From Escherichia coli (GTDB taxonomy: Bacteria > Pseudomonadota > Gammaproteobacteria > Enterobacterales > Enterobacteriaceae): a DNA stretch of 64,000 bases. Both the position numbers and the translations under genes were made by a program. Below the pieces are notes generated by a model. The model saw only the letters and a list, made by a program, of their open reading frames with translations. It had not been told where the DNA came from and did no database searches. Location: assembly GCA_005400705.1 (NCBI GenBank), contig GCA_005400705.1_4079.1; one strand, 5' to 3'. Shown one piece after another: positions 6,294 through 63,507 of this stretch (the stretch's first letter is position 1; each line of letters begins with the position of its first letter).

Positions 6294-6295
6294 GT

Positions 6296-6427: not shown

Positions 6428-6450
6428 TTTTTTGTATAAATTTATGAGGA

Positions 6451-7305: not shown

Positions 7306-7321
7306 ATCTGGAGGATTTGGT

Positions 7322-7615: not shown

Positions 7616-7625
7616 TGAAAATAAT

Positions 7626-7670: not shown

Positions 7671-7686
7671 GATAACGGAGATATAG

Positions 7687-13684: not shown

Positions 13685-13694
13685 GAGGTTACAT

Positions 13695-20613: not shown

Positions 20614-20625
20614 CAAGGAGTAATA

Positions 20626-21558: not shown

Positions 21559-21577
21559 TAAAATAAATAGTGCATAT

Positions 21578-22285
21578 ATGACAAAAAGGACTTTCTATAT
21601 GCACTATTATATTATATATAAAATAACCAATTTAATTAATAATAAAATTTATATTGGTGCTCATATGACTGATGACATAAATGATGAATATATGGGTTCA
21701 GGTGTTCTGATAAAGAAATCCATTAAGAAATATGGAATTGAAAAATTCAATAAAGAAATACTTTATATTTTTGATAATAAAGAAGAAATGTATAACAAAG
21801 AAAGAGAAATTGTTAATGAACAATTTATACAAAGAAGCGACACATATAACATCAAACGTGGTGGAGAAGGTGGCTACGGCGTAATTGATAAAGAAAATTG
21901 GAAAAAACAAATATCAACGGCACAAAAGAAGCGATATTCTTCAGGTGTTGTGGCTTGGAATAAAGGTAAATCTGTATCAGAAGAAACACGTATTCAAATG
22001 AGTCAGAGGATGAAAGGTCGTTTCCCTGGAGATAAAAATCCTATGCATGGTAAACCCTGTACATATAAAATGACAGATGAAGAAAAAACATCATGGTCCA
22101 ACAATATAAAGAAATCAAACACTGGTAAAAAGAGAACTGATGTTCAAAAACAAAAATATTCTTCGGTCGCGTCAAAACGAATTTGGTTAGTTCATAAAAG
22201 TGGTAAAGTTACTAATACACAAAATGAAAATGACCCACGTTTGAATGATCCAGATTGGCAACGTGGTCAAAAGTGGAGAGAATGA
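21578..22285 (+). CDS. GIY-YIG homing endonuclease (Seg-like) with NUMOD-type DNA-binding repeats
   Basis: YIIYKITNLINNKIYIGAH (GIY-YIG motif), WNKGK and KNPMHGK repeats; start at 21578 or 21599 (ORF-track start 21545 overlaps pseT). Confidence 0.75.
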   Translation: MTKRTFYMHYYIIYKITNLINNKIYIGAHMTDDINDEYMGSGVLIKKSIKKYGIEKFNKEILYIFDNKEEMYNKEREIVNEQFIQRSDTYNIKRGGEGGYGVIDKENWKKQISTAQKKRYSSGVVAWNKGKSVSEETRIQMSQRMKGRFPGDKNPMHGKPCTYKMTDEEKTSWSNNIKKSNTGKKRTDVQKQKYSSVASKRIWLVHKSGKVTNTQNENDPRLNDPDWQRGQKWRE

Positions 22286-22310
22286 ATATTTTTATGGATT
22301 ATAATTTTTG

Positions 22311-22340
22311 AGGGATCATAATTTGGTCCCTTTTTCTTTT
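22311..22340 (+). terminator. probable rho-independent terminator
   Basis: AGGGA...TCCCT stem followed by TTTTTCTTTT. Confidence 0.5.
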
Positions 22341-22529
22341 AAGGTACATTATAGTGAATGTAACAACACAGATGTTATTGCGAAAAGACTACTTAGAAAA
22401 TATAGAAAGATTCTATAGAATGTCTTTGTATGAAAATAAACATAAAAATTATAATTTTGATAAACTACTAAATTCCAGTACTGATGATTATCTATTTTCA
22501 TCAATGTTTTATGTGAGAGGTTTATTATA

Positions 22530-22790
22530 ATGGATAAATTTCACACAGATATAACACAGATAGGTAATCTTATCAATAGTCTAATTACTGATTTAGAAGA
22601 AAAGTATTTAGGTCGAAATGTATACGTAGAAATGTATGAAACATATGGTGTTATTGATATGATTTATTACAGTGCATTGAAGTGTGAAATACGTTTAACA
22701 GTATGTTTGTTTGAAAAAAATACATTCAACAGAAGTACTGCAATTCGCCAAGTTGGAGTTGATGATATAGAATTATACGAGGAACAATGA
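22530..22790 (+). CDS. small protein, resembles tandem-array family
   Basis: ORF track. Confidence 0.5.
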   Translation: MDKFHTDITQIGNLINSLITDLEEKYLGRNVYVEMYETYGVIDMIYYSALKCEIRLTVCLFEKNTFNRSTAIRQVGVDDIELYEEQ

Positions 22791-23041
22791 TGTTTGAGCA
22801 GGACTTAGAGATATTCAAAAGTCATATTGATTACTTGACTATATTAGAAAATGATTTAACTACAAAGTACAAAGGTATTCGTGTTCTGTGCTGGTATGAT
22901 GATTGGGATTATAAACGTGAACTCACTATTGATCGAATTTATTTCAGTGACGGTGTACTAAATGTACATGGTGTAAATGATTTTGGTCATTCATATACAT
23001 ATTCTAATAATGCTAAATTTAAAAGGATCTGCAATGAATGA
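22787..23041 (+). CDS. small protein, resembles tandem-array family
   Basis: ATGA overlap. Confidence 0.5.
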   Translation: MMFEQDLEIFKSHIDYLTILENDLTTKYKGIRVLCWYDDWDYKRELTIDRIYFSDGVLNVHGVNDFGHSYTYSNNAKFKRICNE

Positions 23042-23336
23042 ATATTATCATAATTTATTCGATTACATAAAACTAATAGATGATCTTTCTTTTGAATTTC
23101 TCAGTACTGAAAAAGTTCTTGAACCTCTCTATTATGATTGTATTAGTTCACTATCTTTAGATGAAAAAGAGATATTATCAAATAATTTACCGTCAACCGT
23201 CTGTGTAATCAATGGTTCCAAGGCTGTGGTGTCTGAGGTTAATTTTCATAAATCACTTAATACAATTGTTTACAAGTTCGATAACACTTGGATCAATCAT
23301 GTAACCAGTAATATTAAATCTGTGAGATTTTTATGA
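23034..23336 (+). CDS. hypothetical small protein
   Basis: AAAAGGA 6 nt upstream of ATG 23034; ORF-track start 22977 would overlap 65 nt. Confidence 0.5.
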   Translation: MNEYYHNLFDYIKLIDDLSFEFLSTEKVLEPLYYDCISSLSLDEKEILSNNLPSTVCVINGSKAVVSEVNFHKSLNTIVYKFDNTWINHVTSNIKSVRFL

Positions 23337-23629
23337 ATATAAAAAAATTATTTGAACAAGTAAATTTATTGTACTGGTGTTCAGACGGTTCAGATAAGGA
23401 ATATAGTGAAGTTTATTTAGAACTGTTTAGAACTGAAATTCATTATATTCGAAGATACTTAATTGATAACAAAACTAAAGTACAAGTAAGATACCATAAC
23501 GGTACTTTAAAGGATGGTATAATTATTGGATTGATAGTTGCACGATGGTCTAGTAATATTAAAGTTGCAGTAAGATTAATGACTGATGATGGTGTCTACA
23601 CAATAGAAGCTAGTGAGATTATATATTAA
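23333..23629 (+). CDS. hypothetical small protein
   Basis: ATGA overlap. Confidence 0.5.
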   Translation: MNIKKLFEQVNLLYWCSDGSDKEYSEVYLELFRTEIHYIRRYLIDNKTKVQVRYHNGTLKDGIIIGLIVARWSSNIKVAVRLMTDDGVYTIEASEIIY

Positions 23630-50564: not shown

Positions 50565-50572
50565 ATATAAAT
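50565..50572 (+). promoter_or_regulatory. T4-type late promoter TATAAATA
   Basis: exact TATAAATA ~35 nt upstream of first tail-fibre-like gene. Confidence 0.45.
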
Positions 50573-50607
50573 ACATTAACTAATATCTAATTTATAAGGG
50601 ATATATA

Positions 50608-53304
50608 ATGTCAAAGAAAATATATGGTGGCTTAGATGTCACACATAATGTGACAGTTAATGGTAAAAGAACAATTCAAGGAATAAATGAACAAGTTTTT
50701 GATTCCAACGGTAACTTGGAATTAGATACTTATTCCAGAGATGAAGTACTAGATATAGTAAGTATGATACCAATCTCCCATTATGGTTCACAAAACTATC
50801 TACCTGCGGGTGTTTCTGGGGATTTCAATGGTGCATCAGAAAACCAGTCACAACGTAGAAATAAAATTTTATTAGAAAACGATGGTACACTAGTGCTTTT
50901 ACGTAGTGGGACAAACGGTAGTGTTGAGGGATTATTTTATTCATATTTGGCTAACGCATTATCAGTTGATGACATGAGCCGTACAATTAACACCAGTCGT
51001 CAATACAAGCCTGGGTTTTTTGGTTCAAATAGAGTTGCGATTGGTTTATACAATACTGATCCAAATATTTTACTCGGTAGATATATTGATACTTCTAACA
51101 GTACTAATGGTTTGTTCATATCAATTACCAATGGTACATTAGATGATAAATTGCATACTGGTTTTTTCGTTAACCAAGCAGATATATCACCGGAAGGTGG
51201 TATTGAATATGCTATGATGGCAGAAGATGGTTCTATATATGTTTTTAACGTACTTAATGAAAATAACCAACTACAATTAGTTGTTGTTAAAGTTGTTTAT
51301 AATATAAGCAATGGTACTTATACTGCAACTCGAATTACTGGATGGACTACTAAAACATTTTATAACACGACATATTCTGCACAAAATAATATGGTTATTA
51401 CTAATCAGGTAACATCAACAAATATTGCTGATAAACCTTATGCTTATGTCCCACAAAATCTACGCGGTATTGGGATTTACATGACATCAATTGATTTATA
51501 TGTTGCACAGCAGCCAGGAACGCAGAATTTCCGCTTTAGAATGAACGGGGATGCTTGGTTTACAATGGCAACATATAATACACGTCCACAGCATAGTTAC
51601 AGTTTTGTGTTCAATATGAGTACTAAACAATGTACATTAGATGCAGGTAACGATATTGGTTCATATCAAGCACCATTAGTTATAACTAATACTGGTTCGG
51701 CATTAGTTCCTACTGGTAACGTTTTAAATAACGATCCATTGTATAACCATGCAAATGCAAGAAACATTTATAGTTCATATTTTTATTTGAATTCTGGTGA
51801 AGCTTTTTGTACTGCATGTCCAAACTTAGCAGAACCATTACTTATGCAAAAAGCTAAGTTTCCTATTCAAATAGTTTATAGTATGCTGAATGTCCGTGCT
51901 GTACTTTCTACTGACTTCAAAGGTGGTATAGTTCGCCCGTCTTTTGGTTCAGCGGTTGGTTCATTTATTAATGGTGTAGAATTACTACCAGATAACAGTA
52001 CTAAACAATATTCACGTGCATCAGGTAGTGGTGGATTTAGACCATCATATGCAGTTCATAAAAGTACTCCTAATTTTACATTTAAATCATTATCTTTAGG
52101 AACAATACAAGGTTATGAACCTACAGTTGAACGTGCTAATGTTGATGATAATGCAAATAATAGAATTTTTATTAGTAGTATTTCTGGGTCAACTGTCACA
52201 ACCAATGGTGGTATTTTTATGGTTGGGCAACGTTATTCACAATCATTATCCTATGATAAAAACTTAAATGGCACAGGAATTATAAGCGTTACACAATCAG
52301 TACTGGACAATTTTAGAAATACTGAATATGCCAAAGTTCTAAGTGATTGGAATTTATCAGCACAAGCATACCGTGATATGACACTATTTGTTCCACAACA
52401 AACAGACATTCCAGCTTTTGTTATGTTGAGTACAATTACTAATGATTATAGAAACTATATTAGAATTGCTGAAGTTAATGTCAATACTAGAGTTGGTAAT
52501 ATTACATCTATTACATTTAAGCGTTTAGTACTTGAGAATACGTATGGTAATAACTTTACACCAACTGGGAATGGTTCGATTGCATCTTCTTCTGTTGGTT
52601 TGACCATATATGATGGTGGTTCATTCTACTTCATTGGTGGTTCTGACCCATTATCACATCCAACAATAGGTAATACTGCAACTCATCAATTTAGAGCATA
52701 TGTAACTAAATCAACTGCACAATTTACAAGTTTTATAATTACTGGATCTCATGCCAGTTATGAACAAGGAAGTCAACCAGCAGCATTACCTGGTATTGGT
52801 TTTGGAATTTTTGAACCAATGGATTACTCAAATAAAATGACATTCAAAAAATATGGAACAACGATTGCAGACTATAATAACTGGACTGCACAAGGTAGCC
52901 CAATTAACGTAGTATCCCAGGACGTTGCTCAAGGGTTTATTGTATATTTTACAGAGGAAACACCAGTTATTCTTTCAGGTAAGTCATTTTCACTACCAGT
53001 TTCAAATATTGATTTGAGAACTATTAAGTCTAATCCAGCAAATACAACATTTTATGTATATGTTAAATTGGAACAAGGATTGGCAAACTATTACATAACT
53101 ACTGATGTTATTTCTGAAACAGGAACAACTGCATATAATATTTTTTGGATAGGTACAATTCAAACTAATGCAATTCAAATCGAAACAATTAATATACAAA
53201 AACGTTCCCGTTTAGATATATTTGGTGCTTCACTTGAATCAGCAGGTTCATCGTTCCCAGTTAGCTACGGTCTACCATCACAAACAGGAACCATAAACTG
53301 GTAA
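50608..53304 (+). CDS. tail-fibre-like / receptor-binding structural protein, paralog 1 (898 aa)
   Basis: AAGGG before ATG; long Asn/Thr/Ser/Gly-rich sequence; conserved N-terminal block (DGTLVLLRSGTNGS) and C-terminal tail (GSSFPVSYGLPSQTGTINW) shared with next two genes. Confidence 0.5.
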   Translation: MSKKIYGGLDVTHNVTVNGKRTIQGINEQVFDSNGNLELDTYSRDEVLDIVSMIPISHYGSQNYLPAGVSGDFNGASENQSQRRNKILLENDGTLVLLRSGTNGSVEGLFYSYLANALSVDDMSRTINTSRQYKPGFFGSNRVAIGLYNTDPNILLGRYIDTSNSTNGLFISITNGTLDDKLHTGFFVNQADISPEGGIEYAMMAEDGSIYVFNVLNENNQLQLVVVKVVYNISNGTYTATRITGWTTKTFYNTTYSAQNNMVITNQVTSTNIADKPYAYVPQNLRGIGIYMTSIDLYVAQQPGTQNFRFRMNGDAWFTMATYNTRPQHSYSFVFNMSTKQCTLDAGNDIGSYQAPLVITNTGSALVPTGNVLNNDPLYNHANARNIYSSYFYLNSGEAFCTACPNLAEPLLMQKAKFPIQIVYSMLNVRAVLSTDFKGGIVRPSFGSAVGSFINGVELLPDNSTKQYSRASGSGGFRPSYAVHKSTPNFTFKSLSLGTIQGYEPTVERANVDDNANNRIFISSISGSTVTTNGGIFMVGQRYSQSLSYDKNLNGTGIISVTQSVLDNFRNTEYAKVLSDWNLSAQAYRDMTLFVPQQTDIPAFVMLSTITNDYRNYIRIAEVNVNTRVGNITSITFKRLVLENTYGNNFTPTGNGSIASSSVGLTIYDGGSFYFIGGSDPLSHPTIGNTATHQFRAYVTKSTAQFTSFIITGSHASYEQGSQPAALPGIGFGIFEPMDYSNKMTFKKYGTTIADYNNWTAQGSPINVVSQDVAQGFIVYFTEETPVILSGKSFSLPVSNIDLRTIKSNPANTTFYVYVKLEQGLANYYITTDVISETGTTAYNIFWIGTIQTNAIQIETINIQKRSRLDIFGASLESAGSSFPVSYGLPSQTGTINW

Positions 53305-53315
53305 AGGATTACATA

Positions 53316-53903
53316 ATGGCATATAAAATAAGAGCAGACCTTAAGGCAATGCAACAAGTTACAGTTCAGGGTAAAAGTACTGGTCTTGGTGTATTAGGTA
53401 ATAATATGACTTATTACCCAACAAATTCAAATGGGGAATGTACATTCCCCTCTATTACCAAAGATGAAGTTAACTTTATTGTCAATGGATTACCACTTAC
53501 ACAATACGGAGAATTGTATGATGACGCTAGTCTAAATATTACTTCATCAGGCTATAGTCTTACATTTAATAGACAGATACCATCATTTATTGGTGGTTAT
53601 CTTTATAAATTTCCAGCAGTTTCTATTTTTGCTTCAACTGTTTCATCTGGAACACAAACACAATACGTATATGCAACGTTAGTTCTCGGTGAACCAATTT
53701 ATAAAATATCACCAACACAAATACAAGAATCTGAAATTATAATGTTTATTGGAACACTGACCGTTGGTACAAGTGGTATTACAAATATAAACATTAATAA
53801 AGTATCCAGATTTAGTACATATAGACCTAGTGTTACACAAAAAGGTTCTTCATTCCCAGTCAGTACTGGAAAACCATCAGAAACTGGTACAATTGGTTGG
53901 TAA
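53316..53903 (+). CDS. short paralog of tail-fibre-like family (195 aa)
   Basis: AAAGGA before ATG; C-terminus GSSFPVSTGKPSETGTIGW. Confidence 0.5.
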   Translation: MAYKIRADLKAMQQVTVQGKSTGLGVLGNNMTYYPTNSNGECTFPSITKDEVNFIVNGLPLTQYGELYDDASLNITSSGYSLTFNRQIPSFIGGYLYKFPAVSIFASTVSSGTQTQYVYATLVLGEPIYKISPTQIQESEIIMFIGTLTVGTSGITNININKVSRFSTYRPSVTQKGSSFPVSTGKPSETGTIGW

Positions 53904-53919
53904 ATTAAGGAAAAGAAAG

Positions 53920-56649
53920 ATGTCATCAAAACGAATTATAGGAAGTGCCGAGATCCTTGGGAACTTGGCAATTGGACAAAGGTACGCTATGCGTACTTTT
54001 AATGGAACCTCACCGAATGCCAATACTGGAATTGTTCAATATCCAATATATAAGCGTTCAGAAGTTCAAAGTATTTTAGATATGTTGCCTATATCACGTG
54101 TAGGAGAAATGGATTACTTACCATTAAACGTAAGTGGATCGTATGAAGGTGCTACACCTATGTCAAGTGACCAAGTAGTTCAGCCAACAATTATTGAAGA
54201 TGATGGAACCGCCGTTGTTCTGCGTAGCGGAACCAATGGTAGTACTAAAGGTTTTTATTATTCATTTATACGAGATCTCCGAAATATAACTATGATTTCA
54301 CAAGAAAGTGTTATTTCAACCAATTCAATGTATAAACCTTCAATTATGAGTAGTACTGAAAATATTAAGTATTTTATTGGCTCTAATGGTTATGAGATGC
54401 TTGGATGTTTAAGTACTGAAGATAATTATATTTTTACTATAACCAATGGCACATTTAACGAAATATCACATATTCATGCTAAAGTTCCAAGTACTTCTTT
54501 TGGTAATGATATGCCAATATATACACATATTGTTGGGACAAAGGTTTATATTTGGTGTAAAGATAAAAGTGTTTCTAATTTAGGATTAGCACTTTCAATT
54601 TATACAGTAGAGCTAAGTGATGTGAAAGCAAGCTCAATGGCATCATTAACAAAAGTTACTGGGTTATCAGGTCAAACTGTTCGAAACACAAGTTATTCTG
54701 CATCTAATAACATAAGAGTGTTCGATAAATTATATAGTGTTGGTACTAGCTCGGATTCATTATTCGAAGTTACATCACCAGTATCACGTGTAGAATTTTC
54801 AGACTATACAGACTTTAACATTCAAGCCAACGTTAGTCCTGATTTATCAAAAATACGTGTAACTTTATATCCAACACATCGAATGGTTACACCTTTGTAT
54901 ATTTCAACAGTTTATGGTACTGGAATAAGTTTTGTTTATAATATAAACTCAAAATCTATGTCACTAGATGGTAGTGCTCGTGCACCTGCAACTGTTTCAT
55001 ATAATAATGGATTTCAAGTTTCTAACCCATTTGAAATTAATATGGTCAACTTCACAGGGACAACTGCTGCTGGTGTATTAGGAAACGCAGGTGGTTTATG
55101 TCAAACTAAAGATGGTTTGGTATTTGCATCTAAATTTAGATGGAGTTCAACTGAATTTTATGGTCTACAACGATATAAGGTTAGTGGGACACCGTTTGAT
55201 TCATGGGTTGCCAGTACTAGAACCGCAAGTAACGTTATAAATGCAAACGTTTTACCAGTTTTTGGTAGTGCTGTTGGTGCAAACCTTTTAGGTGTACGTT
55301 TCATCGATAATAGAAAAATATTATTAGCATGTTCTGGTACGTATGATGATGTAACATATAATTATAATAATACTGTTTTTTCTGAAATAGGTTCACAACC
55401 AACATATCAATATAACTCAGTTCAAAATAATACTACATTAAATGGTTTTGCACCACAATCTAATCGTAAACAAATAGGCGATGATTTTACATACACTGCT
55501 ATGATTTCTCTTGTTGATACCGATGGTAGTGTTAGATGCTATGGAACATCATTCATTGAAGGTGTATATAAAACAAGTGGTGGATTATTAAACCCAGATA
55601 CTTTAGAATTTGATGAAACATATACAATAGAACCAACGGTATTAGAATCATTAAAACAAGATATTTTTGCTAATCTAGGAAACTCTGGCATTGTTGGTAC
55701 ACTATCTGGACAAATTGTATTATATTATGTACCTGATAATACTTTTTCTAAATCCATCGCAGTAGTTTCAGCATATAATCTTAACAATAACCAAGGTTAT
55801 GCAATCTATGCCGAAGTTGATGTTGTATTATCTGGAACTAACATAACTTCAGCTACATTGGTGAGTACTAGATATGAGACACTTAGTTCTGTTACAGGAA
55901 TTATTACTGAAGCATATATGAAACGTTGTACTGGTCTAACAGTTGCAAAATATTCAGGATTTGGTTACATTGGTGTTGATGCTGTTCATCAATTTTCACA
56001 ACCAGGTAATGCACAATTTAAGATGATGATAGCTAAAACAGTAGATGGTGTCATAACATCAAATCGTTTTTTATCATCTAGTTACATCCAACTTGGTGCA
56101 GCATATCAACATGGTGTTATTCCTGGTGTTGGTTTTGGATATTACAATTTTCAAGATTCTGACTATCAAACCAAATCTGTATTCAGCGTTTTTGGTACAA
56201 CATCTGCTGAAATGGATGGTTTAATTAGTGGAAATGGTAGCGTTAAAGAAAAGATTGTGGTAGTATCACAAGACGTTGCACAAGGATTCTCAGTGTACTT
56301 TACACGTGAAGTTCCGGTGTTTTTAGGTGGAATTTTCGACAGACTACCTATACAAAGTGTTGATTTAAGTACTGTAAAAAGTAACCCAGCTAATACTACG
56401 TTCTATTTGTATATACAAATGAACAGGAATACTAAGAAGGCGTCATATGTTATTAGTACTGAAACAATTGATGAATCTTTAACTAGCACTTACATTGGTA
56501 AGATAGTTACTGGAACTTCAGGAATAACTTCAATTGATACAGAAAAAGTAACTCGTTTTTTGACATATCGTCCAAGTACAACGAAACGTGGTTCAGCGAT
56601 ACCTGCCAGTACTGGTGTACCATCAGGTCCAGGTACACGTTGGAAATAA
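53920..56649 (+). CDS. tail-fibre-like / receptor-binding structural protein, paralog 2 (909 aa)
   Basis: AAGGA before ATG 53920 (ORF-track start 53830 overlaps upstream gene); DGTAVVLRSGTNGS and C-terminus GSAIPASTGVPSGPGT. Confidence 0.5.
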   Translation: MSSKRIIGSAEILGNLAIGQRYAMRTFNGTSPNANTGIVQYPIYKRSEVQSILDMLPISRVGEMDYLPLNVSGSYEGATPMSSDQVVQPTIIEDDGTAVVLRSGTNGSTKGFYYSFIRDLRNITMISQESVISTNSMYKPSIMSSTENIKYFIGSNGYEMLGCLSTEDNYIFTITNGTFNEISHIHAKVPSTSFGNDMPIYTHIVGTKVYIWCKDKSVSNLGLALSIYTVELSDVKASSMASLTKVTGLSGQTVRNTSYSASNNIRVFDKLYSVGTSSDSLFEVTSPVSRVEFSDYTDFNIQANVSPDLSKIRVTLYPTHRMVTPLYISTVYGTGISFVYNINSKSMSLDGSARAPATVSYNNGFQVSNPFEINMVNFTGTTAAGVLGNAGGLCQTKDGLVFASKFRWSSTEFYGLQRYKVSGTPFDSWVASTRTASNVINANVLPVFGSAVGANLLGVRFIDNRKILLACSGTYDDVTYNYNNTVFSEIGSQPTYQYNSVQNNTTLNGFAPQSNRKQIGDDFTYTAMISLVDTDGSVRCYGTSFIEGVYKTSGGLLNPDTLEFDETYTIEPTVLESLKQDIFANLGNSGIVGTLSGQIVLYYVPDNTFSKSIAVVSAYNLNNNQGYAIYAEVDVVLSGTNITSATLVSTRYETLSSVTGIITEAYMKRCTGLTVAKYSGFGYIGVDAVHQFSQPGNAQFKMMIAKTVDGVITSNRFLSSSYIQLGAAYQHGVIPGVGFGYYNFQDSDYQTKSVFSVFGTTSAEMDGLISGNGSVKEKIVVVSQDVAQGFSVYFTREVPVFLGGIFDRLPIQSVDLSTVKSNPANTTFYLYIQMNRNTKKASYVISTETIDESLTSTYIGKIVTGTSGITSIDTEKVTRFLTYRPSTTKRGSAIPASTGVPSGPGTRWK

Positions 56650-56655
56650 ATTTAA

Positions 56656-56684
56656 AGCTCGTCTATTGACGGGCTTTTCTTTTA
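56656..56684 (+). terminator. rho-independent terminator
   Basis: stem AGCTCGTC...GACGGGCT (one G-U pair) followed by TTTTCTTTT. Confidence 0.65.
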
Positions 56685-56688
56685 TGTG

Positions 56689-56694
56689 TATAAT
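56689..56694 (+). promoter_or_regulatory. -10-like TATAAT
   Basis: GTGTATAATTG upstream of gene at 56717. Confidence 0.3.
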
Positions 56695-56716
56695 TGAATA
56701 AAAATAGGAGGAAATT

Positions 56717-57283
56717 ATGGTCAAATCTTTATTACCGCCACCAAAACGTCACAAAATCAAAGAAATGAAAGAACAACGTACATTAAAGATGTACATCAAT
56801 TTAGTTAAGTTACTGTGTAAAAGTCCATCGCTCAAAGCAGAGTTTAAAACTGATGATGACCGCAAAGCACTAATTGAGATGAAGTATATGCTCAGTAAAA
56901 TGTCCTTTTACAAATTTGTAAAAGAATACGCATCTGACCCATTTAGTCCTCGTTGGAGAGCCAAACCAAGAGAGTATTTTTACGGTGGTTCATATACGGA
57001 TATCATTCAAGACACAGTGATGGGAGTTGAATTTGAAATCGATTATGATCCGAATGGTGTGGAAAGCTGGCCGATTGAGAAACGTTTACCAAGTGAAGAA
57101 GAAATTTATGTTTATGCAAGAAAACTTTCAAATTTCAGTTCAAGAATTACTCTAGGCAATTTAGATTCATTTATTATTTTCTATACACGTGTTGGTGTAG
57201 ATAAAATGGTAACTAAACTCAATGAACTTTCATTACAACAAAAACAGATTAATGCATACAAAGACATTACTGATTTATACTAA
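56717..57283 (+). CDS. hypothetical protein, first of three tandem paralogs
   Basis: GGAGGAAATTATG; shared block KSPSLKAEFKTDDDRKALIEMKYMLSK. Confidence 0.55.
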   Translation: MVKSLLPPPKRHKIKEMKEQRTLKMYINLVKLLCKSPSLKAEFKTDDDRKALIEMKYMLSKMSFYKFVKEYASDPFSPRWRAKPREYFYGGSYTDIIQDTVMGVEFEIDYDPNGVESWPIEKRLPSEEEIYVYARKLSNFSSRITLGNLDSFIIFYTRVGVDKMVTKLNELSLQQKQINAYKDITDLY

Positions 57284-57289
57284 TGAGGA

Positions 57290-57811
57290 ATGGATATGTT
57301 TTTTGGATCAGTTGGAAAACAAAACAGTACTTTAATTTGGCATGAAATTATCTTTAAAATTATATCTAAAAGCTACTCACTAAAGGATATTATTACCACA
57401 GATAATGATAGACGTATCCTGTTAGATGCAAAATATAAATTGAGCAAACACCCTTTACTTTCTTTAATCATTGATTACGTTAATGATTATGAATCTAGTC
57501 GTTGGAAGTGGGAAGACGGCGGTTTATTTCGTGGAAAAACATTCTACGGTGCGGAACGATATGTTTTCAGTGATACATCAAATGGCGTTAAGTTTGCTAT
57601 TAGAAACTTTAACTCCAAAGAAAATGATTATCTTGAAAGTGGAGTGAAAGTATATATCGATAATAATAGCAATGTACTAACATATGACGAATCACTAATT
57701 ATGTTACAAATAATGCGTGGAGTTGAAGGTGTAAGAAACAACCTTACTAAATTGAAAATCCAGCAAAATGATATACATAATAGACAGAAAATTAAGGGTT
57801 TATATAAATGA
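57290..57811 (+). CDS. hypothetical protein, second of three tandem paralogs
   Basis: shared block KSYSLKDIITTDNDRRILLDAKYKLSK; start 57290 or 57296. Confidence 0.5.
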   Translation: MDMFFGSVGKQNSTLIWHEIIFKIISKSYSLKDIITTDNDRRILLDAKYKLSKHPLLSLIIDYVNDYESSRWKWEDGGLFRGKTFYGAERYVFSDTSNGVKFAIRNFNSKENDYLESGVKVYIDNNSNVLTYDESLIMLQIMRGVEGVRNNLTKLKIQQNDIHNRQKIKGLYK

Positions 57812-58317
57812 TTTCATTTTTCAAAAAGAAACAAAAAGTTGATGAAACCGGATTAGAATCGTTTCTGTGGACTCTTATCATCAAAAAAAGCCCATTGATG
57901 AAAGAATATGCTATCAATGATGCTAATAGAAAAACTATCATTGAATACAAATATGAATTATCTAAATGTGATCCAATTGTTTATCACTTTGCGAAGTACT
58001 GTTCAAAAAATTTATCGGATATCACAATCGACCACGAGTCAGTCCCGATGAGTTTTCCTTATGGTGATTGGGTAGATACTTTTGATATTTTTGATGGGTC
58101 AAATGGTTTCAGTTTCTTTTACTCGTCAAATAAAGCAAATGTTCGTATTAAAACAGACATAGGTTGGACACAGCATAGCTCAAATAAAGAAGATTATAAT
58201 TTATTAGCTGACGTATACCGAAGTGTGAAGAATTCAAAGGATATTGATGAAAGAATTAAAAAGCAAAATCGTATATCTTTATCACTTGAAACATACAAGT
58301 CAAAGTATGGTGGTTAA
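57808..58317 (+). CDS. hypothetical protein, third of three tandem paralogs
   Basis: shared block KKSPLMKEYAINDANRKTIIEYKYELSK; ATGA overlap. Confidence 0.5.
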   Translation: MISFFKKKQKVDETGLESFLWTLIIKKSPLMKEYAINDANRKTIIEYKYELSKCDPIVYHFAKYCSKNLSDITIDHESVPMSFPYGDWVDTFDIFDGSNGFSFFYSSNKANVRIKTDIGWTQHSSNKEDYNLLADVYRSVKNSKDIDERIKKQNRISLSLETYKSKYGG

Positions 58318-58319
58318 CT

Positions 58320-58721
58320 ATGACTACAGTTGATGATATCTATAGCACTATACGCAATATGAGTACAGATAGAAAAGTATTTGGCGATAAAGAAAAATCT
58401 AAGTGTTATGGTATTGATTCTTTTGATATAATTTCTTATGAGTACAATACAAGTGGAAATAGTTCACTGAATATCGTCTGTCCTCGTGACCCAGAAAATA
58501 ATTTTATGTATGTTGAAATTAATAATGATGGAATGTTTTTTACAAAAGTTTTCAAAGGTGGAATTAATTACGAACCTATTGAATGTATGAATGAAGAAAC
58601 TTTCTTTCAAGAAGATACAATTATCAATTTAGGTTTTAGTTTTGATGATTATAAAACATTAGAACATGACTTTAATCGTTATTATAATGGTTTCTTAAAG
58701 GAGTTAACAATTTATCTATGA
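58320..58721 (+). CDS. hypothetical protein (133 aa)
   Basis: ORF track. Confidence 0.5.
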   Translation: MTTVDDIYSTIRNMSTDRKVFGDKEKSKCYGIDSFDIISYEYNTSGNSSLNIVCPRDPENNFMYVEINNDGMFFTKVFKGGINYEPIECMNEETFFQEDTIINLGFSFDDYKTLEHDFNRYYNGFLKELTIYL

Positions 58722-59950
58722 ATAACCAATATATTGAACAAACAATAGTGAAACACTTGGCTGGGTCACAAGCCTACGGAACCAGTACACCTGAAAGTGA
58801 TACTGATTATCGTGGTATTTTTCTTGCTAATAAAGAATTTATTCTTACACCCTTCTATAAGGTCAAAGAGGTAGCTGATAAAAGCGAAGAAGATACTAAA
58901 TTCTATGAGTTGAATCAGTATTTAAAATTATACACTGAAGCTAACCCTAATATTCTTGAATCACTTTGGGTTGAACCTGAACACATTGTTGAAAGTACTG
59001 AAATTTATGACTATCTTCGTTCATTTAACCAAAAACTTCTTAGTTCCAAGATTGCATTTTCATATACTGGTTATGCATATAATCAGATTAAGCGTATGAC
59101 AAATCATCACGGTTGGATGGATAAAGAGCGTATTGCTGAAAAACGATTAAATGAGATTTTAGAAGAACACCCTGTCGATGAGGTTCTTGCGTGGATGTAT
59201 GATTCATTCCCACAGTATCTTGTTGAACGTTTAGATACATCCAACTTACATCCATTTAATGCTAAAAAGATTGATTTTGAAAAATATATGCGTGATACAT
59301 CATTGCAGTTAGTTTCGAAAAATCCATTAAAGCAATATCATTTCGTAAGATTAGTGCATAACTACACTACTGAAAAAATTCTTGATCGTGATTTCAATTT
59401 ATTGAATTTTAATAATGGTTATGAACTAATTCATTACGGAGAAAACATTTTTGCGATTGTTAAGAATCCTAATGAAAGCACTATTAACCATGATGGTTCA
59501 TTGCGTTATTTTTCAAAAGAACGTAGTACTGAAGAGTTGAAAACCAAACCAGAACTAATTGTAAAATTTAACGAAAAAGAATATCAGGAGAATAGTGAGA
59601 ATAGGAAAAGTTATCATAAATGGAAAGAAAATCGTAATGCCAAACGTGCTATTTTAGAATCACAACACGGATACGATTGTAAACATGCTATGCACACAAT
59701 CCGACTTTTGAATAGTGCAGAAGAAGCATTACAAAGTGGAATTATTCAAGTTAAACGACCAGATGCACAAATGTTGATGGATATTCGTAATGGTAAATGG
59801 AAGTATGAAGAAGTATTAGAATATTTCGATGATAAAGTACAATACATTCGTGATGTTCTATATAAGAAATCAGTACTTCCTAAAAAACCAAACATCAAGT
59901 TAGCATCAAAAATTATCATTGATATTAGAGAAATGCAATGGTATAAGTAA
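58718..59950 (+). CDS. Pol-beta-superfamily nucleotidyltransferase-domain protein (410 aa)
   Basis: N-terminal GSQAYGTSTPESDTDYRGIF = G[SG]x9-13Dh[DE]h nucleotidyltransferase signature; ATGA overlap. Confidence 0.55.
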   Translation: MNNQYIEQTIVKHLAGSQAYGTSTPESDTDYRGIFLANKEFILTPFYKVKEVADKSEEDTKFYELNQYLKLYTEANPNILESLWVEPEHIVESTEIYDYLRSFNQKLLSSKIAFSYTGYAYNQIKRMTNHHGWMDKERIAEKRLNEILEEHPVDEVLAWMYDSFPQYLVERLDTSNLHPFNAKKIDFEKYMRDTSLQLVSKNPLKQYHFVRLVHNYTTEKILDRDFNLLNFNNGYELIHYGENIFAIVKNPNESTINHDGSLRYFSKERSTEELKTKPELIVKFNEKEYQENSENRKSYHKWKENRNAKRAILESQHGYDCKHAMHTIRLLNSAEEALQSGIIQVKRPDAQMLMDIRNGKWKYEEVLEYFDDKVQYIRDVLYKKSVLPKKPNIKLASKIIIDIREMQWYK

Positions 59951-60027
59951 CATACATGAGTATAATGGTACTAAAAATGCCATTATACTCGATAAATACT
60001 CAATATAAATTAACGCAAGGATTAAGT

Positions 60028-60156
60028 ATGGCACAACAAATTTTCACAGATATCCACACTACCGGAGTTATTAAATTTCAAAATAATTTTTCAGGTGCAA
60101 CTGGTGTAGACATTAAAAATGATGGTTTTAACATTGTCAGTACTCGGATCTATTGA
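60028..60156 (+). CDS. short ORF, possibly the N-terminal part of a frameshifted gene continuing at 60119
   Basis: AAGGA 7 nt upstream of ATG 60028; TATAAATT late-promoter-like site at 60005; ORF-track variant starts at 59956. Confidence 0.3.
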   Translation: MAQQIFTDIHTTGVIKFQNNFSGATGVDIKNDGFNIVSTRIY

Positions 60157-60655
60157 TGGTGAAGATAGTTCTCTTAGTGATTCTGTGATTGCATCATTCG
60201 GAACTAATAAAAACAGTTCTTTTATTATATCTGGATGGACTGGAATGACTGATTCTGAAAATAATGTTAAGATAAAAGCTAAATCTACTAACGAGAATCA
60301 TGAAACAGAATGGGTAACATTATATGATAGTGCAAGTAATAAGTTATATAATGTACTAAGTTCTAATAACATTTTAATTAATCCACTGTCGGGTAATGCT
60401 GTTTTTAATATTAATTTATCTGATAGAAATACTACTATTTCGATTGGTGCGGCTCCTACTGAAGTTTATTCAATTACCATCCTATTAACACAACAAACAG
60501 GTTCAAACCTAGTTAATTGGGGTTCTAATGTTAAATGGTCATATAACAGACCAGTTGTTCTTTCTTATGAAATTGGTGAAAAAGATATTATTTCATTAGA
60601 AACATATGATAAAGGAGTTACATGGTACGGTGCATTAATTAGAGCAGGAGTATGA
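60119..60655 (+). CDS. probable virion structural protein (Ser/Asn/Thr-rich)
   Basis: ORF track; start overlaps upstream ORF by 38 nt in a different frame. Confidence 0.45.
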   Translation: MMVLTLSVLGSIDGEDSSLSDSVIASFGTNKNSSFIISGWTGMTDSENNVKIKAKSTNENHETEWVTLYDSASNKLYNVLSSNNILINPLSGNAVFNINLSDRNTTISIGAAPTEVYSITILLTQQTGSNLVNWGSNVKWSYNRPVVLSYEIGEKDIISLETYDKGVTWYGALIRAGV

Positions 60656-60656
60656 T

Positions 60657-63446
60657 ATGTTAAACAATAATATTGATAATATTGTACAACTTCTTTATGG
60701 GCATCACAAATTTATTGAAAGAAATACTGGTGATACAATAGACCCAACAGTACAACATTATGTGGTGAACAATCAGGGTGTTTTGGCGAACAACCGTCAT
60801 TTTATTAACTATTCTGCAATGGAAGGTCAACCAAACGGTGACGGAACAACAGAAGGTCAAAGTCTATTAATTTTAGGATACATTTATGCGTATCTGGCAA
60901 CAAATGATCCAATGTTTTTAGATAAGGCAAAGTGGTATTGGGACGCATATCATCAGTACTTTTATGCTGGACGTGAATTACCAGATCCACCTACACCACT
61001 ACAATGTAACTGGATAGTTAATGCCAAAGAACCTATATTGGCTAACTGGCCTTTAGCTGATGATGGCTGGCCCACACATGGTGGTTTCAAGGGTGTAGAA
61101 TTTACATTTACAAATGGACAATGTAAAATACCACATGGTGCACCTTATTATGGTCAGTTCTTGGATAAAGTAACATTTGCATTCAAAGGTGCTTTAGCAT
61201 GGAACCAAATAAATGCGTCAGTAAAAGCATTATTACCAGATGGTAGTGTTGATTGGGATACACCAGGTGAACAATATGATGTTGACTGGATTATCGATTT
61301 CATGGGTAGAAAAATCGACTGGGATGGTAATATTTTAGCAGAAGGTTTTGACGAATCTGAAAAAGGAACTGTTCAATTAAAGAATACAACAATTAATGGT
61401 GTATATAAATTAAATTTTGCAAATCGTCAACCAGTAGAATATGGTGGTGTGATAATTCAACGAAATGAAATGCAACACAACCGCCCTCTTCATGTTCCAA
61501 TTGATTTGGAATTTGCTGATAACGCATCAGATGCAGAATTATGGTTTAGTGATGCTTCTTATTTGTTATATAAAATAACAAAAGAAAGAAAACATTATTT
61601 GGGTTGGAAATGTTCACTACTAACGTGTTATGCTTATGGTGATATTGACTCCAGAGATAAATTTTTCAGACAAAGTACAATTGTAACCACACCATTCACT
61701 GATGGTATTTCCTATGAATATTTTTATCCTAGTGATGCTATTGCTAAGTTTGGTAGAAATTCTCTAGGATATATTACTATCAGGCAAGACCAAAGTGCAC
61801 AAAGTACTATGGAACAACAAGCTATTTGGTTCAGGGTCAATGCTGATTCTAAATTACTTGTAGACTATGGTGGTGTATGTGATGATGGTAAGCCGTTATC
61901 ATTTAAACCAGTACTGGAATTGTCAAAAACAAAAAATGACCATGATGTTGTTCGTTATCGTTGTGGCTTACCGGAAAGTAAAGACCAAAATATCACACAT
62001 TCATTAACACCTTTAAGTGCATTTGTTAGAGAAAAGAAAGCAGATGGTTCCCCTTATATAATTGCTGATAGTAGAATTGTTGTTCCTTATGGTGCAGCTA
62101 CATCCGAAATGATATATAGTACTGATATATTAGTTACACGCCGAGATACCATTAATCAGTTAGTTTGTGGTGAAGATGATGGTGCTGTTATTGGATTTTG
62201 GCTATTAGCAACAAATAAGTCTGAAGTTAAATCTTTTACATATCGTTCATATGAAGATGATTACAATATAAGAATTGTAGATGATAATGGTTGGAGATGG
62301 TGGTGGATGATTCCTGCAACACACGGGGAATGGACTACAATCACACTAAGTTCCGATACATTACGTTTATCTGGGTATCAGCCAAATCATCCAAGTTCTG
62401 ACCCAAGACCAGATGCACCAGTTTATAGTGAGCTAGAAGATATTACTATTTTACCTGATACAACCCCAGTAGATGGTGTTGCTGCAATAATTGATTGGTA
62501 TTGTATTAATGACATTCCAGAATTATATACGGATGCTGATGGTGATGACTATACTATGACATTTTCAATAACAATTGCAGGTGAATCACCATATACTGCA
62601 CAGTTAGGGGATTGTGTAATCAAAGATTATTTGTTAAACTCATTGCATTACACACCAGGAACAATACCATTTTCTAACATCACTGACCCGTATGCGAACC
62701 AGTATTCAGGATGGCGTGGTTTACCGTATCCAGGTTATCAATATCCTGTGATATATTGTTTTAAAGACCAGCCAGTAGATAACACACGCTTAGGAAACAT
62801 GTTAAGCTTTATGAAAGATTCCCAAACATGGTTTACTCAACAATTCGGTACTGTTGGTCCGTGTGCACAAGCATATGTTTGGAACCGCTGGGATAACTTA
62901 AAGTATGGTGAACCAGATACATTTACTATGCTACATTGGGGTGATCAAGCATGGAGTGGGTATGAACCACGTGCGTTCTTTGGGGCTGCCAGAGCATGGC
63001 AAGAACTCGCAGAGAGAGGAATTGAACCACCAGCAGATCTTGTTGAATTTTGTGAGAATTGGATTCACTTTTTAATTCAATTTCAAAAAGATAATGATGG
63101 TCGTTCACCAACAATCTTCAATAAAGATGGCACAGTTGAAGGTCCAGATTGGGACTTTACGGGTCATATGTGTGGGTTGTGGTTAGCTGGGGCTTGTGCT
63201 GCTGGGTTGGCTGGATGTAAAATAGAAGGTCTAACAACACTCGCTGATAACTTAGTTCTCGAACTTCAAAAGAATTATGTTATTGTAAATCCAGGTTCAC
63301 CAATGAATGGTTCATGGAGTCCAGCAGTTAGAGAAGGTACTGATAATGGTATGTTTTTTGGTTTCTGGGCAGGTGAGAATATGCGTGGATTGGGATTATA
63401 CTCAATGTACCGCTTAAACACACCAAATCGTTTCCGTGATTTATAA
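60657..63446 (+). CDS. large Trp-rich protein (929 aa); possible carbohydrate-active or tail-associated protein
   Basis: GCAGGAG before ATG; C-terminal third is Trp/Gly/aromatic-rich in a way reminiscent of glycoside-hydrolase toroid domains; weak inference. Confidence 0.5.
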   Translation: MLNNNIDNIVQLLYGHHKFIERNTGDTIDPTVQHYVVNNQGVLANNRHFINYSAMEGQPNGDGTTEGQSLLILGYIYAYLATNDPMFLDKAKWYWDAYHQYFYAGRELPDPPTPLQCNWIVNAKEPILANWPLADDGWPTHGGFKGVEFTFTNGQCKIPHGAPYYGQFLDKVTFAFKGALAWNQINASVKALLPDGSVDWDTPGEQYDVDWIIDFMGRKIDWDGNILAEGFDESEKGTVQLKNTTINGVYKLNFANRQPVEYGGVIIQRNEMQHNRPLHVPIDLEFADNASDAELWFSDASYLLYKITKERKHYLGWKCSLLTCYAYGDIDSRDKFFRQSTIVTTPFTDGISYEYFYPSDAIAKFGRNSLGYITIRQDQSAQSTMEQQAIWFRVNADSKLLVDYGGVCDDGKPLSFKPVLELSKTKNDHDVVRYRCGLPESKDQNITHSLTPLSAFVREKKADGSPYIIADSRIVVPYGAATSEMIYSTDILVTRRDTINQLVCGEDDGAVIGFWLLATNKSEVKSFTYRSYEDDYNIRIVDDNGWRWWWMIPATHGEWTTITLSSDTLRLSGYQPNHPSSDPRPDAPVYSELEDITILPDTTPVDGVAAIIDWYCINDIPELYTDADGDDYTMTFSITIAGESPYTAQLGDCVIKDYLLNSLHYTPGTIPFSNITDPYANQYSGWRGLPYPGYQYPVIYCFKDQPVDNTRLGNMLSFMKDSQTWFTQQFGTVGPCAQAYVWNRWDNLKYGEPDTFTMLHWGDQAWSGYEPRAFFGAARAWQELAERGIEPPADLVEFCENWIHFLIQFQKDNDGRSPTIFNKDGTVEGPDWDFTGHMCGLWLAGACAAGLAGCKIEGLTTLADNLVLELQKNYVIVNPGSPMNGSWSPAVREGTDNGMFFGFWAGENMRGLGLYSMYRLNTPNRFRDL

Positions 63447-63477
63447 CTTGACATAGAAAAAGTAATTATGTATAATT

Positions 63478-63507
63478 AGAGAACTTCATATGGAGTTCTC
63501 TTTTTTA
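63478..63507 (+). terminator. rho-independent terminator
   Basis: stem AGAGAACT...AGTTCTCT followed by TTTTTT. Confidence 0.75.

What the first reader, a model, noticed from the sequence alone, without database searches (positions are those of the whole stretch)
56717..58317. Three tandem paralogous genes immediately upstream of the nucleotidyltransferase
The three ORFs (188, 173, 169 aa) share a conserved N-terminal region (K[SK][PY]SLK...D.[DN]R[KR].L[IL][ED].KY.LSK) and diverge after it. Tandem triplication directly after the tail-fibre block and before the nucleotidyltransferase could mean fibre-assembly chaperones matched to the fibre paralogs, or diversified early effectors.
Basis: seen in the sequence. 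Interest (0 to 1): 0.45.

Follow-up and report, generated by a model that had tools for sequence, protein, structure and literature searches.

The report
Fast-evolving early gene trio in jumbo phage
Three neighbouring genes of a giant E. coli virus are real copies of one another. They are probably not tail-fibre helpers but early-made, non-virion proteins of unknown function that evolve and are swapped between viruses as one block at the head of an RNA-repair operon.

Summary
ORFs A (56717-57283), B (57296/57290-57811) and C (57808-58317) are 121Q gp502-504 of an Asteriusvirus jumbo coliphage. They are true paralogs (A-B E=4e-16 over full length; C by profile).

The fibre-chaperone reading is not supported:
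- A conserved terminator with an embedded sigma70-type promoter separates the trio from the late (TATAAATA) fibre genes.
- Copy number (2-4) does not track fibre number.
- The proteins are absent from the phAPEC6 virion proteome.
- Their divergence is decoupled from the fibres.

The trio heads a tightly coupled operon ending in a conserved RlaP RNA-repair nucleotidyltransferase. In relatives, Thg1 and DUF4326 genes are interleaved with the copies. The cassette is a discrete recombining module: 27-37% aa identity to JNE01 (flanks 60-87%) but 90-95% nt identity to Turkey3 (flanks 72-81%). It is under purifying selection.

Best reading: early cytoplasmic host-interaction or counter-defence factors working as a type-1/type-2 pair. 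The function is untested. Interest is moderate to low.

The parts
56654..56677 (+). Intrinsic terminator hairpin (10 bp stem, then a T-run) that ends the late fibre-like gene block gp499-501
   Evidence: Scan; sequence; annotated as a terminator in the G17 record. The hairpin is conserved, with compensatory arm changes, in L008, L010, L011, L014 and Turkey3 and in JNE01 and Muenster.
56666..56694 (+). Sigma70-type promoter TTGACG-17-TATAAT (11/12). The -35 lies in the loop and 3' arm of the terminator hairpin.
   Evidence: An equivalent promoter (11-12 of 12 matches) lies upstream of the first copy in every relative examined. Strong sigma70-type sites in the window are strand-biased, 15 on + vs 2 on -.
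56706..56711 (+). AGGAGG Shine-Dalgarno of ORF A
   Evidence: Read from the sequence.
56717..57283 (+). Paralog A (188 aa; 121Q gp502; type 1; phrog_18641)
   Evidence: dN/dS 0.215 vs Turkey3.
57296..57811 (+). Paralog B (171 aa from the favoured ATG; 173 aa from ATG 57290; 121Q gp503; type 1; phrog_18641)
   Evidence: AF2 model pLDDT 89.6. dN/dS 0.184.
57808..58317 (+). Paralog C (169 aa; 121Q gp504; type 2; phrog_7868). Its start overlaps B's stop as ATGA.
   Evidence: dN/dS 0.093.
58320..58721 (+). gp505, an unrelated acidic (pI 4.4) 133-aa protein in the same operon. It is strongly conserved (58-60% identity across genera, dN/dS 0.015).
58718..59950 (+). RlaP-family Pol-beta nucleotidyltransferase (gp506). 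Its start overlaps the gp505 stop as ATGA.
   Evidence: Pfam PF10127, 59 bits vs cut-off 23; phrog_388; 73-74% identity across genera.
50566..50573 (+). TATAAATA, a T4-type late-promoter-like motif 35 nt upstream of the fibre-like gene gp499. It is the only such site on the + strand of the window.
   Evidence: The motif class was checked on MS-verified structural genes of phAPEC6.
50608..56649 (+). Fibre-like paralog trio: gp499 (50608-53304), gp500 (53316-53903) and gp501 (about 53920-56649). This is the 'tail-fibre block' upstream of the cassette.
   Evidence: paralogy. gp499 was detected in the phAPEC6 virion as gp323c.
60004..60011 (+). TATAAATT, a late-promoter-like motif ahead of gp507 (virion protein) and the gp508/gp509 fibre genes
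   Evidence: gp507 (= phAPEC6 gp315c) and gp509 (= gp314c) are in the virion. The whole module is absent in Turkey3.

Best explanation
The three ORFs are genuine protein-coding paralogs of one small family (phrog_18641 + phrog_7868) that is confined to Rak2-like jumbo phages and has no recognisable solved fold.

Shown:
- They form the promoter-proximal part of a tightly packed operon, A-B-C-gp505-RlaP nucleotidyltransferase. It is driven by a conserved sigma70-type promoter embedded in the terminator of the preceding late fibre genes.
- They are absent from the virion proteome of a 99.5%-identical phage.
- Every related genome keeps at least one 'type 1' copy (A/B-like) followed by one 'type 2' copy (C-like).
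- The cassette evolves and recombines as a discrete unit, much faster than the fibre genes and the NTase, while under purifying selection.

Inferred:
- They are early or middle, cytoplasmic, basic alpha/beta proteins that act on a rapidly changing partner.
- That partner is most plausibly a host component, which would make them counter-defence or host-takeover factors.
- Type 1 and type 2 probably work as a non-redundant pair. The conserved N-terminal helical motif and C-terminal helix would form the common scaffold, and the variable beta-rich middle the specificity surface.

More speculative: the operon partners are RNA-repair enzymes (RlaP; Thg1 and an S1-domain protein in relatives). The target may therefore be host RNA/tRNA-directed immunity. 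The paralogs could neutralise the nucleases while the NTase repairs the damage.
For: Paralogy and family:
-.
- Narrow distribution: 38 clusters among 1.84e9 representatives; phage hits only in Asteriusvirus, Alcyoneusvirus and relatives.
- Confident model with no structural relative.

Operon:
- ATGA overlaps and 2-6 nt gaps between genes.
- The family always lies 1-4 genes upstream of RlaP, on the same strand.

Timing class:
- Conserved terminator-embedded sigma70 promoter.
- TATAAATA-type motifs lie ahead of fibre and structural genes instead.
- The phage encodes a late sigma factor.
- These phages use host RNAP (PMC7824862, PMC11895373).

Non-virion status: phAPEC6 MS lists gp323c, gp314c and gp315c but not gp321c, gp320c or gp319c.

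Fast, modular evolution:
- 27-37% aa identity to JNE01 vs 60-87% for neighbours.
- dS 0.14-0.44 vs 1.1-4.6 against Turkey3, with omega 0.09-0.21.
- Sharp boundaries at about 56650 and 58310.

Type 1 / type 2 retention.

RNA-repair context:
- RlaP biochemistry (PMC12776372).
- RlaP, Thg1 and DUF4326 are treated as conflict systems in jumbo phages (PMC7824862).
- Thg1 and DUF4326 are interleaved with family copies.
Against: - There is no experimental datum on expression, localisation, partners or phenotype.
- Promoter class is inferred from sequence motifs only. Read-through from the late promoter at 50566 is possible. The operon also lacks a terminator before the downstream fibre genes gp507-509.
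- Conserved gene order within one phage clade could be phylogenetic inertia rather than functional linkage.
- The recombination boundary at the C/gp505 junction shows that the cassette does not co-evolve with gp505 or the NTase.
- Absence from a virion MS list is weak negative evidence.
- Pairing of type 1 with type 2 is inferred from co-retention only.
Confidence: 0.4

Rival explanations
1. Tail-fibre or tail-spike assembly chaperones, one per fibre paralog, encoded next to their clients.
For: - The cassette sits directly after a trio of fibre-like paralogs in most relatives, and other fibre genes follow the NTase in 121Q.
- Three copies face three fibre-like genes in this window.
- Chaperones are also absent from virions, so one search is neutral.
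Against: - A conserved terminator plus its own sigma70-type promoter separates the cassette from the fibres, while the fibres carry late-type motifs.
- There are 2-4 copies with a constant fibre-like trio (L014 has 2, L010 has 4). Klebsiella phages with many unrelated depolymerase fibres have 2.
- Cassette divergence is decoupled from fibre divergence in both directions.
- No hit to Tfa, gp38, gp57 or any other Pfam family at E<=1.
- phAPEC6 has a separate putative fibre-assembly protein, Gp220.
- The downstream fibre module gp507-509 is absent in Turkey3 while the cassette is retained.
Confidence: 0.1
2. Nucleic-acid-binding regulators. A basic N-terminal tail plus a three/four-helix N-domain with an HTH-like 'KY.LSK.TLY.LLK' segment would bind DNA or RNA to reprogramme transcription early in infection.
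For: - pI 8.7-9.2 with a basic N-terminus.
- The helix-turn-helix-like H38-52/H57-65 pair in the model.
- Singleton PHROG hits to a 'transcriptional regulator', a 'transcriptional activator' and the C-terminal part of an HNH endonuclease family.
Against: - No Pfam HTH family is hit by any of the 31 members, even at E<=10.
- The PHROG hits are each 1 of 31 members.
- Rapid diversification of the middle domain is more typical of protein-protein arms races than of operator recognition.
Confidence: 0.15
3. Dedicated accessory or specificity subunits of the RlaP nucleotidyltransferase (and Thg1). They would act as RNA-substrate adaptors that direct repair to particular damaged tRNAs.
For: - Invariable operon linkage to RlaP across the whole family, with translational coupling along the operon.
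- Thg1 is inserted between copies in one lineage.
- The proteins are basic.
- RlaP acts on damaged RNA 3' ends (PMC12776372).
Against: - The NTase is 73-82% conserved while the paralogs drop to 25-37%, and the recombination boundary falls between C and gp505. There is therefore no co-evolution with the enzyme.
- Bacterial RlaP works alone in vitro (PMC12776372).
- Phages such as PVP-SE1 have the NTase, according to annotation notes, but the family was not found outside Rak2-like phages.
Confidence: 0.15

Closest known systems
PHROG families phrog_18641 and phrog_7868 (unknown function); 121Q gp502-504; RaK2 ORF001/002; phAPEC6 gp321c-319c
   Same: These are the same proteins or direct homologues. 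All 31 aligned family members match phrog_7868 and 25 match phrog_18641. The gene order is the same in all Rak2-like phages.
   Different: Nothing differs in identity. The databases split the family in two and give no function, fold, timing or evolutionary description.
Phage tail-fibre assembly chaperones (T4 gp38/gp57A, lambda/P2/Mu Tfa)
   Same: Small non-virion proteins encoded next to fibre genes.
   Different: - No sequence similarity.
- Separate sigma70-type transcription unit behind a terminator.
- No co-variation with the fibres, and copy number does not match.
Hyperplastic early accessory or anti-defence gene cassettes of large lytic phages (for example the T4 early-region 'plasticity' genes such as the Stp/PrrC-related functions, and anti-CRISPR/anti-restriction loci)
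   Same: - Early-type promoter.
- Small soluble proteins.
- Tandem paralogs.
- Extreme divergence and cassette-like exchange between otherwise syntenic genomes.
- Proximity to RNA-repair genes.
   Different: - No homology to any characterised member.
- No host target is known.
- The position is strictly conserved rather than floating.
XRCC4/PAXX/SAS-6 'beta-head plus long helix' architecture

Membership tests
phrog_18641 / phrog_7868 (Rak2-like phage family of unknown function) | Full-length match to the family HMMs | tested here: met
   A 1.3e-79 and B 3.4e-85 to phrog_18641; C 5.6e-58 to phrog_7868; cross-hits between the two. 31/31 and 25/31 family members match.
Tail-fibre assembly chaperones (Tfa/Caudo_TAP, T4 gp38, gp57A) | Sequence membership in a known chaperone family | tested here: not met
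   No Pfam family at E<=1 for A, B or C. No annotated PHROG hit.
Tail-fibre assembly chaperones (Tfa/Caudo_TAP, T4 gp38, gp57A) | Co-transcription with the client fibre gene in a late operon | tested here: not met
   A conserved terminator and sigma70-type promoter lie between the fibres and the cassette. The late TATAAATA motif sits ahead of the fibres only. This rests on sequence motifs, not transcript data.
Tail-fibre assembly chaperones (Tfa/Caudo_TAP, T4 gp38, gp57A) | Co-variation with, and copy number matched to, the client fibres | tested here: not met
   There are 2-4 copies against a constant fibre-like trio, and 2 copies with unrelated Klebsiella fibres. Identity patterns are decoupled.
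Tail-fibre assembly chaperones (Tfa/Caudo_TAP, T4 gp38, gp57A) | Required for fibre folding or trimerisation | not testable with these tools
   Needs co-expression or a deletion mutant.
RlaP (PF10127) Pol-beta nucleotidyltransferase: applies to the neighbouring gp506, not to the paralogs | Pfam match above the gathering score, and the G[GS]...DxD NTase motif | tested here: met
   59.2 bits vs cut-off 23. The motif 'GSQAYGTSTPESDTDYRG' is in the translation. The paralogs themselves do not match RlaP.
Helix-turn-helix DNA-binding proteins | Match to an HTH profile, or significant structural match of the N-domain | tested here: not met
XRCC4/PAXX/SAS-6 superfamily | Significant structural superposition of head plus stalk | tested here: not met
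Known anti-defence proteins or defence-system components (Acr, PADLOC families) | Sequence or structure match | tested here: not met
Early (host sigma70-transcribed) phage genes | Transcript appears early, from the predicted promoter | not testable with these tools
   Only the promoter sequence and its conservation could be examined. No RNA-seq for this phage group was found.

The most novel reading that the evidence does not exclude
A structurally novel protein family, specific to Rak2-like jumbo phages, that forms a hypervariable cassette exchanged between phages as a unit. Its type-1/type-2 pairs would be a new class of early counter-defence factors. For example, they could inhibit host tRNA- or RNA-targeting immune nucleases. 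In that case they would be functionally teamed with the RlaP/Thg1 RNA-repair enzymes of the same operon: inhibit the attacker, then repair the damage.
Probability: 0.2. Interest if true: 0.65.

Novelty: new member of a known kind. Interest (0 to 1): 0.35.

Why it matters
Most of the ~550 genes of Rak2-like jumbo phages have no known function. These phages are being considered for therapy against E. coli and Klebsiella.

This work separates the trio from the fibre genes and places it in an early, RNA-repair-linked operon. It shows the trio is a discrete module, either fast-evolving or swapped between lineages. That turns three 'hypothetical proteins' into a concrete, testable candidate for host-range or counter-defence determinants.

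It also gives two practical by-products:
- A sequence rule that separates sigma70-type from late (TATAAATA) promoters in this phage group.
- A conserved terminator-embedded promoter design.

If the function proves mundane, the result still removes a tempting but wrong annotation (fibre chaperones).

Tried and rejected
1. gp505 as a fourth paralog. It aligned loosely in A1, but the family HMM gives E~2 and hhalign gives 0.15% probability. Rejected.

2. The ~150-aa ORF family between gp505 and the NTase in relatives as remote kin. hhalign gives 1.2%. Rejected.

3. P0020, a 2111-aa hit with 8 matched stretches. It is an RTX-type GGxGxD repeat protein, so this is a compositional artefact.

5. PADLOC DUF2290 hit of ORF A. 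Only 1 of 31 members hits it, so it is a chance match.

6. HNH-endonuclease and transcription-regulator PHROG hits. These are singletons.

7. The HTH idea from reading the motif. No Pfam support.

8. Searches that returned nothing or could not run:
- The search for related loci with the 31-sequence alignment failed because no stretch was conserved enough. The look-up of encoding contigs was used instead.
- The AFDB50 fold library was unavailable.
- The word-indexed protein searches returned only close relatives.

9. Rfam, tRNA and DNA-repeat searches of the region found nothing.

10. Literature. No promoter map, transcriptome or functional data were found for this gene set.

Full report
**Source and identity**

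The window is 99.5% identical to Escherichia phages 121Q, G17, phAPEC6, BF17 and Sharanji (genus Asteriusvirus, Rak2-like jumbo myoviruses of about 350 kb). The three ORFs are:
- 121Q gp502, gp503 and gp504
- G17_00421, G17_00420 and G17_00419
- phAPEC6 gp321c, gp320c and gp319c

All are annotated 'hypothetical protein'.

**1. The observation**

The ORFs lie at 56717-57283 (A, 188 aa), 57290-57811 (B, 173 aa) and 57808-58317 (C, 169 aa).

- A and B align over their full length: 30% identity, E=4e-16.
- C aligns to A and B by BLASTP only through the N-terminal motif: E=9e-5 and 3e-4.
- Profiles join all three end to end. A and B belong to phrog_18641 and C to phrog_7868, with cross-hits (B to phrog_7868 over residues 10-173, E=6e-12).
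- A family HMM finds exactly these three in the window. gp505 scores E~2.
- No DNA-level repeat links the copies, so the duplications are old.

- Homology is full-length, not N-terminal only. The C-terminal helix and a terminal Tyr are conserved.
- B probably starts at 57296, giving 171 aa.
- An unrelated 133-aa gene (gp505) lies between C and the nucleotidyltransferase.

**2. The family**

An exhaustive HMMER search of 1.84 billion representatives found only 38 clusters. Nearly all are standalone proteins of 150-200 aa. One long hit is an RTX-repeat artefact.

tblastn against 50,697 phage records finds the family only in Asteriusvirus, Alcyoneusvirus (RaK2, K64-1, Muenster) and allied jumbo phages. 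Foldseek against BFVD adds only uncharacterized proteins of related Yersinia phages.

No Pfam, NCBIfam, PADLOC or PDB-sequence match is systematic.

With a 31-sequence alignment, AlphaFold2 gives a confident model of B (pLDDT 89.6, pTM 0.81):
- four N-terminal helices (residues 17-65) that carry the motif L(L/I)xKS..L...D..RR.(I/L)I..KY.LSK
- a four-stranded, sequence-variable beta region (72-123)
- a 40-residue C-terminal helix (132-171) ending in the invariant Tyr

**3. Transcriptional context**

The stop codon of the fibre-like gene gp501 (56649) is followed by:
- a 10-bp-stem terminator (56654-56677)
- a sigma70-type promoter, TTGACG-17-TATAAT (56666-56694, 11/12), whose -35 lies in the hairpin loop and 3' arm
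- an AGGAGG ribosome-binding site
- the ATG of ORF A

The same terminator-embedded promoter (11-12 of 12 matches) precedes the first family copy in JNE01, Turkey3 and four metagenomic relatives. The hairpin arms differ but stay complementary, even though the downstream proteins share only ~20-30% identity. In the Klebsiella phages the terminator and a TTGACA-17-TAAAAT promoter are separate but both present.

Strong sigma70-type sites in the window are strand-biased, 15 vs 2.

By contrast, the only TATAAATA on the + strand of the window lies at 50566, between a terminator and gp499. TATAAATT lies ahead of gp507.

In the phAPEC6 structural module:
- All three TATAAATA sites are 25-45 nt upstream of genes: the virion protein gp238, baseplate-region gp242, and the EndoVII gene.
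- Other MS-verified virion genes carry ATAAATA variants.
- Non-structural genes have TATAAT -10 boxes.
- The phage encodes a 'sigma factor for late transcription'.

I infer that the fibre genes are late and the paralog operon is host-sigma70 driven (early or middle). This rests on motifs. No transcriptome exists for this group. A distant relative, PA5oct, uses TTGAC/TATAAT promoters at mapped TSSs.

**4. Operon and synteny**

A, B, C, gp505 and the NTase are packed with 2-12 nt gaps. ATGA stop/start overlaps occur at the B/C and gp505/NTase junctions.

gp506 is an RlaP-family Pol-beta NTase (PF10127, 59 bits vs cut-off 23). RlaP enzymes add one or two nucleotides to 3' ends of damaged RNA and restore tRNA function after repair (PMC12776372). 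In jumbo phages they are interpreted as counter-measures to host attacks on tRNA (PMC7824862).

In every contig long enough to judge, family members lie 1-4 genes upstream of an RlaP gene on the same strand. In some lineages Thg1 (a 3'-5' tRNA-repair polymerase) or DUF4326 is interleaved with the copies, and an S1-domain protein follows the NTase.

Copy number is as follows:

| Phage or locus | Family copies |
|---|---|
| 121Q, JNE01, L011 | 3 |
| Muenster, RCIP0023, RaK2, L008, L014, L017 | 2 |
| L010 | 4 |

A neighbour-joining tree groups the first copies (type 1: A, B and orthologues) apart from the last copy (type 2: C and orthologues). Each genome keeps at least one of each type, in that order.

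**5. Evolution**

Amino-acid identity to the window's proteins:

| Comparison | A | B | C | Neighbouring genes |
|---|---|---|---|---|
| JNE01 | 27% | 37% | 35% | 60-87% |
| Muenster (Klebsiella) | 26% | 25% | 31% | NTase 73%, gp505 58% |

Against Turkey3 the pattern reverses:
- The paralogs are 90-95% identical at the DNA level (dS 0.14-0.44).
- The flanking genes are 72-81% identical (dS 1.1-4.6).
- dN/dS is 0.215 for A, 0.184 for B and 0.093 for C.

These dN/dS values mean the genes are constrained, real genes.

Sliding windows place both discontinuities at the same two points: about 56650 (terminator/promoter) and about 58310 (the C/gp505 junction). The trio is therefore one discrete module with deeply divergent 'alleles' that are exchanged by recombination. 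Its history is decoupled from both the fibres and the NTase.

**6. Virion status**

The phAPEC6 structural proteome (62 proteins) contains the neighbours gp323c (= gp499), gp314c (= gp509) and gp315c (= gp507). It does not contain gp321c, gp320c, gp319c, gp318c or gp316c. The RaK2 paper does not list ORF001/002 among virion proteins. It also notes that ~10% of RaK2 genes are paralogues, so tandem paralogy in itself is ordinary in these genomes.

**7. Interpretation**

The fibre-chaperone idea fails the tests that could be run:
- separate transcription unit and promoter class
- no copy-number match
- no co-variation
- no family match
- a separate putative assembly protein elsewhere in the genome (Gp220)
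- fibre modules that come and go around a stable cassette (gp507-509 are absent in Turkey3)

The 'diversified early effectors' idea fits the promoter class, non-virion status, basic soluble nature, type-1/type-2 retention and cassette-like hyper-divergence.

I therefore favour early cytoplasmic host-interaction or counter-defence factors. They would have a common scaffold and a variable specificity surface, and they may be linked to the RNA-repair function of the operon.

Confidence:
- about 0.65 that they are non-structural early/middle accessory proteins rather than chaperones
- about 0.25 for a specific counter-defence role with an RNA-immunity connection
- 0.4 for the composite statement

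Rivals are nucleic-acid-binding regulators (0.15), RlaP adaptor subunits (0.15) and fibre chaperones (0.1).

**8. Novelty and score**

The genes are already in GenBank and PHROGs as unknowns. Paralog arrays and hyperplastic early cassettes are a known kind of phage feature. What is new here:
- the two PHROGs are unified into one family
- the fold is confident and appears novel
- the timing class is assigned
- the type-1/type-2 structure is recognised
- the sharply bounded recombining-module behaviour is shown

This is a new member of a known kind. Interest is moderate to low (0.35), and would rise to about 0.65 if a counter-defence role against RNA-targeting immunity were shown.

Noticed in passing
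window 56654-56694; also L008:6940-6985, L010:4858-4915, L011:5770-5815, L014:6438-6480, L019:7655-7700: A bifunctional terminator-promoter element. The -35 hexamer TTGACA/G sits in the loop and 3' arm of the terminator hairpin, and the T-run is followed by the TATAAT -10. It is conserved across very divergent jumbo phages, with compensatory changes in the hairpin arms.
   Followed up: partly
window 63448-63501: A perfect sigma70 consensus promoter (TTGACA-17-TATAAT, 12/12) lies immediately upstream of, and abuts, a terminator hairpin (63478-63501) after the fibre gene gp509. Transcripts starting here would begin inside the hairpin and escape termination. This is another overlapping terminator/promoter design.
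   Followed up: no
window 50566-50573 and 60004-60011; L018 1396, 6046, 12085: TATAAATA (T4-type late promoter consensus) occurs once on the + strand of the 64-kb window, just ahead of the virion fibre-like gene gp499. A 7/8 variant precedes gp507. In the phAPEC6 structural module all three copies lie 25-45 nt upstream of late or structural genes. This suggests a T4-like late promoter for Asteriusvirus, which encodes a late sigma factor (phAPEC6 gp237c).
   Followed up: partly
window 59951-63446 (gp507-gp509) vs L019 (Turkey3) 10960-10971: The fibre module downstream of the NTase (the 42-aa virion protein gp507 and the fibre proteins gp508/gp509) is entirely absent in phage Turkey3, where the NTase is followed directly by the gp510 homologue. 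The late fibre modules behave as insertions in an otherwise early-type region.
   Followed up: partly
window 58320-58721 (gp505): A small, very acidic protein (pI 4.4, net charge -11). It is extremely constrained (dN/dS 0.015; 58-60% identity between E. coli and Klebsiella phages), has no family annotation (phrog_22376), and is translationally coupled to the RlaP NTase. It could be an NTase partner or a nucleic-acid mimic.
   Followed up: partly
L003:9908-10357, L004:9869-10333, L008:9193-9648, L014:8236-8694, L017:1399-1839: A ~150-aa family with invariant PRWSC..H and other Cys/His/Trp residues sits between gp505 and the NTase in most relatives. It is missing from the window and from 121Q-type phages.
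   Followed up: partly
L010:5466-6245 and L009:418-1197; L010:6716-7030; L014:9929-10411: In some metagenomic relatives a Thg1-family gene and a DUF4326 gene are interleaved with the paralog copies, and an S1 RNA-binding-domain protein follows the NTase. In the window, DUF4326 (121Q gp497) instead lies between NrdD and NrdG, upstream of the fibre-like trio.
   Followed up: partly
window 53316-56649; L006 (phAPEC6) 4305-7718: The start of gp501 is annotated inconsistently: GTG 53830 as the longest ORF, 53920 in G17, and about 53989 in 121Q. The phAPEC6 record annotates neither gp500 nor gp501, with only a 114-nt ORF in that 3.4-kb stretch, despite 99.5% DNA identity. This is a likely annotation gap that would also hide them from that phage's MS search database.
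   Followed up: no
window 50608-56649: gp499, gp500 and gp501 are themselves paralogs. gp499 vs gp501 gives 27.5% identity over 945 aa (E=8e-62). The 195-aa gp500 matches the N- and C-terminal parts of both. gp499 is virion-associated in phAPEC6.
   Followed up: partly
window 12844-14253: Another small tandem paralog set: ORFs of 91, 103 and 94 aa, with BLASTP E of 2e-5 to 2e-6 between them. It lies next to the cytidylyltransferase and methyltransferase genes.
   Followed up: no
window 20454-23625: A T4-like RNA ligase (121Q gp438) and a polynucleotide kinase (gp443) lie about 35 kb upstream of the RlaP NTase in the same co-directional early-type block. The phage therefore carries a dispersed tRNA-repair toolkit.
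   Followed up: no
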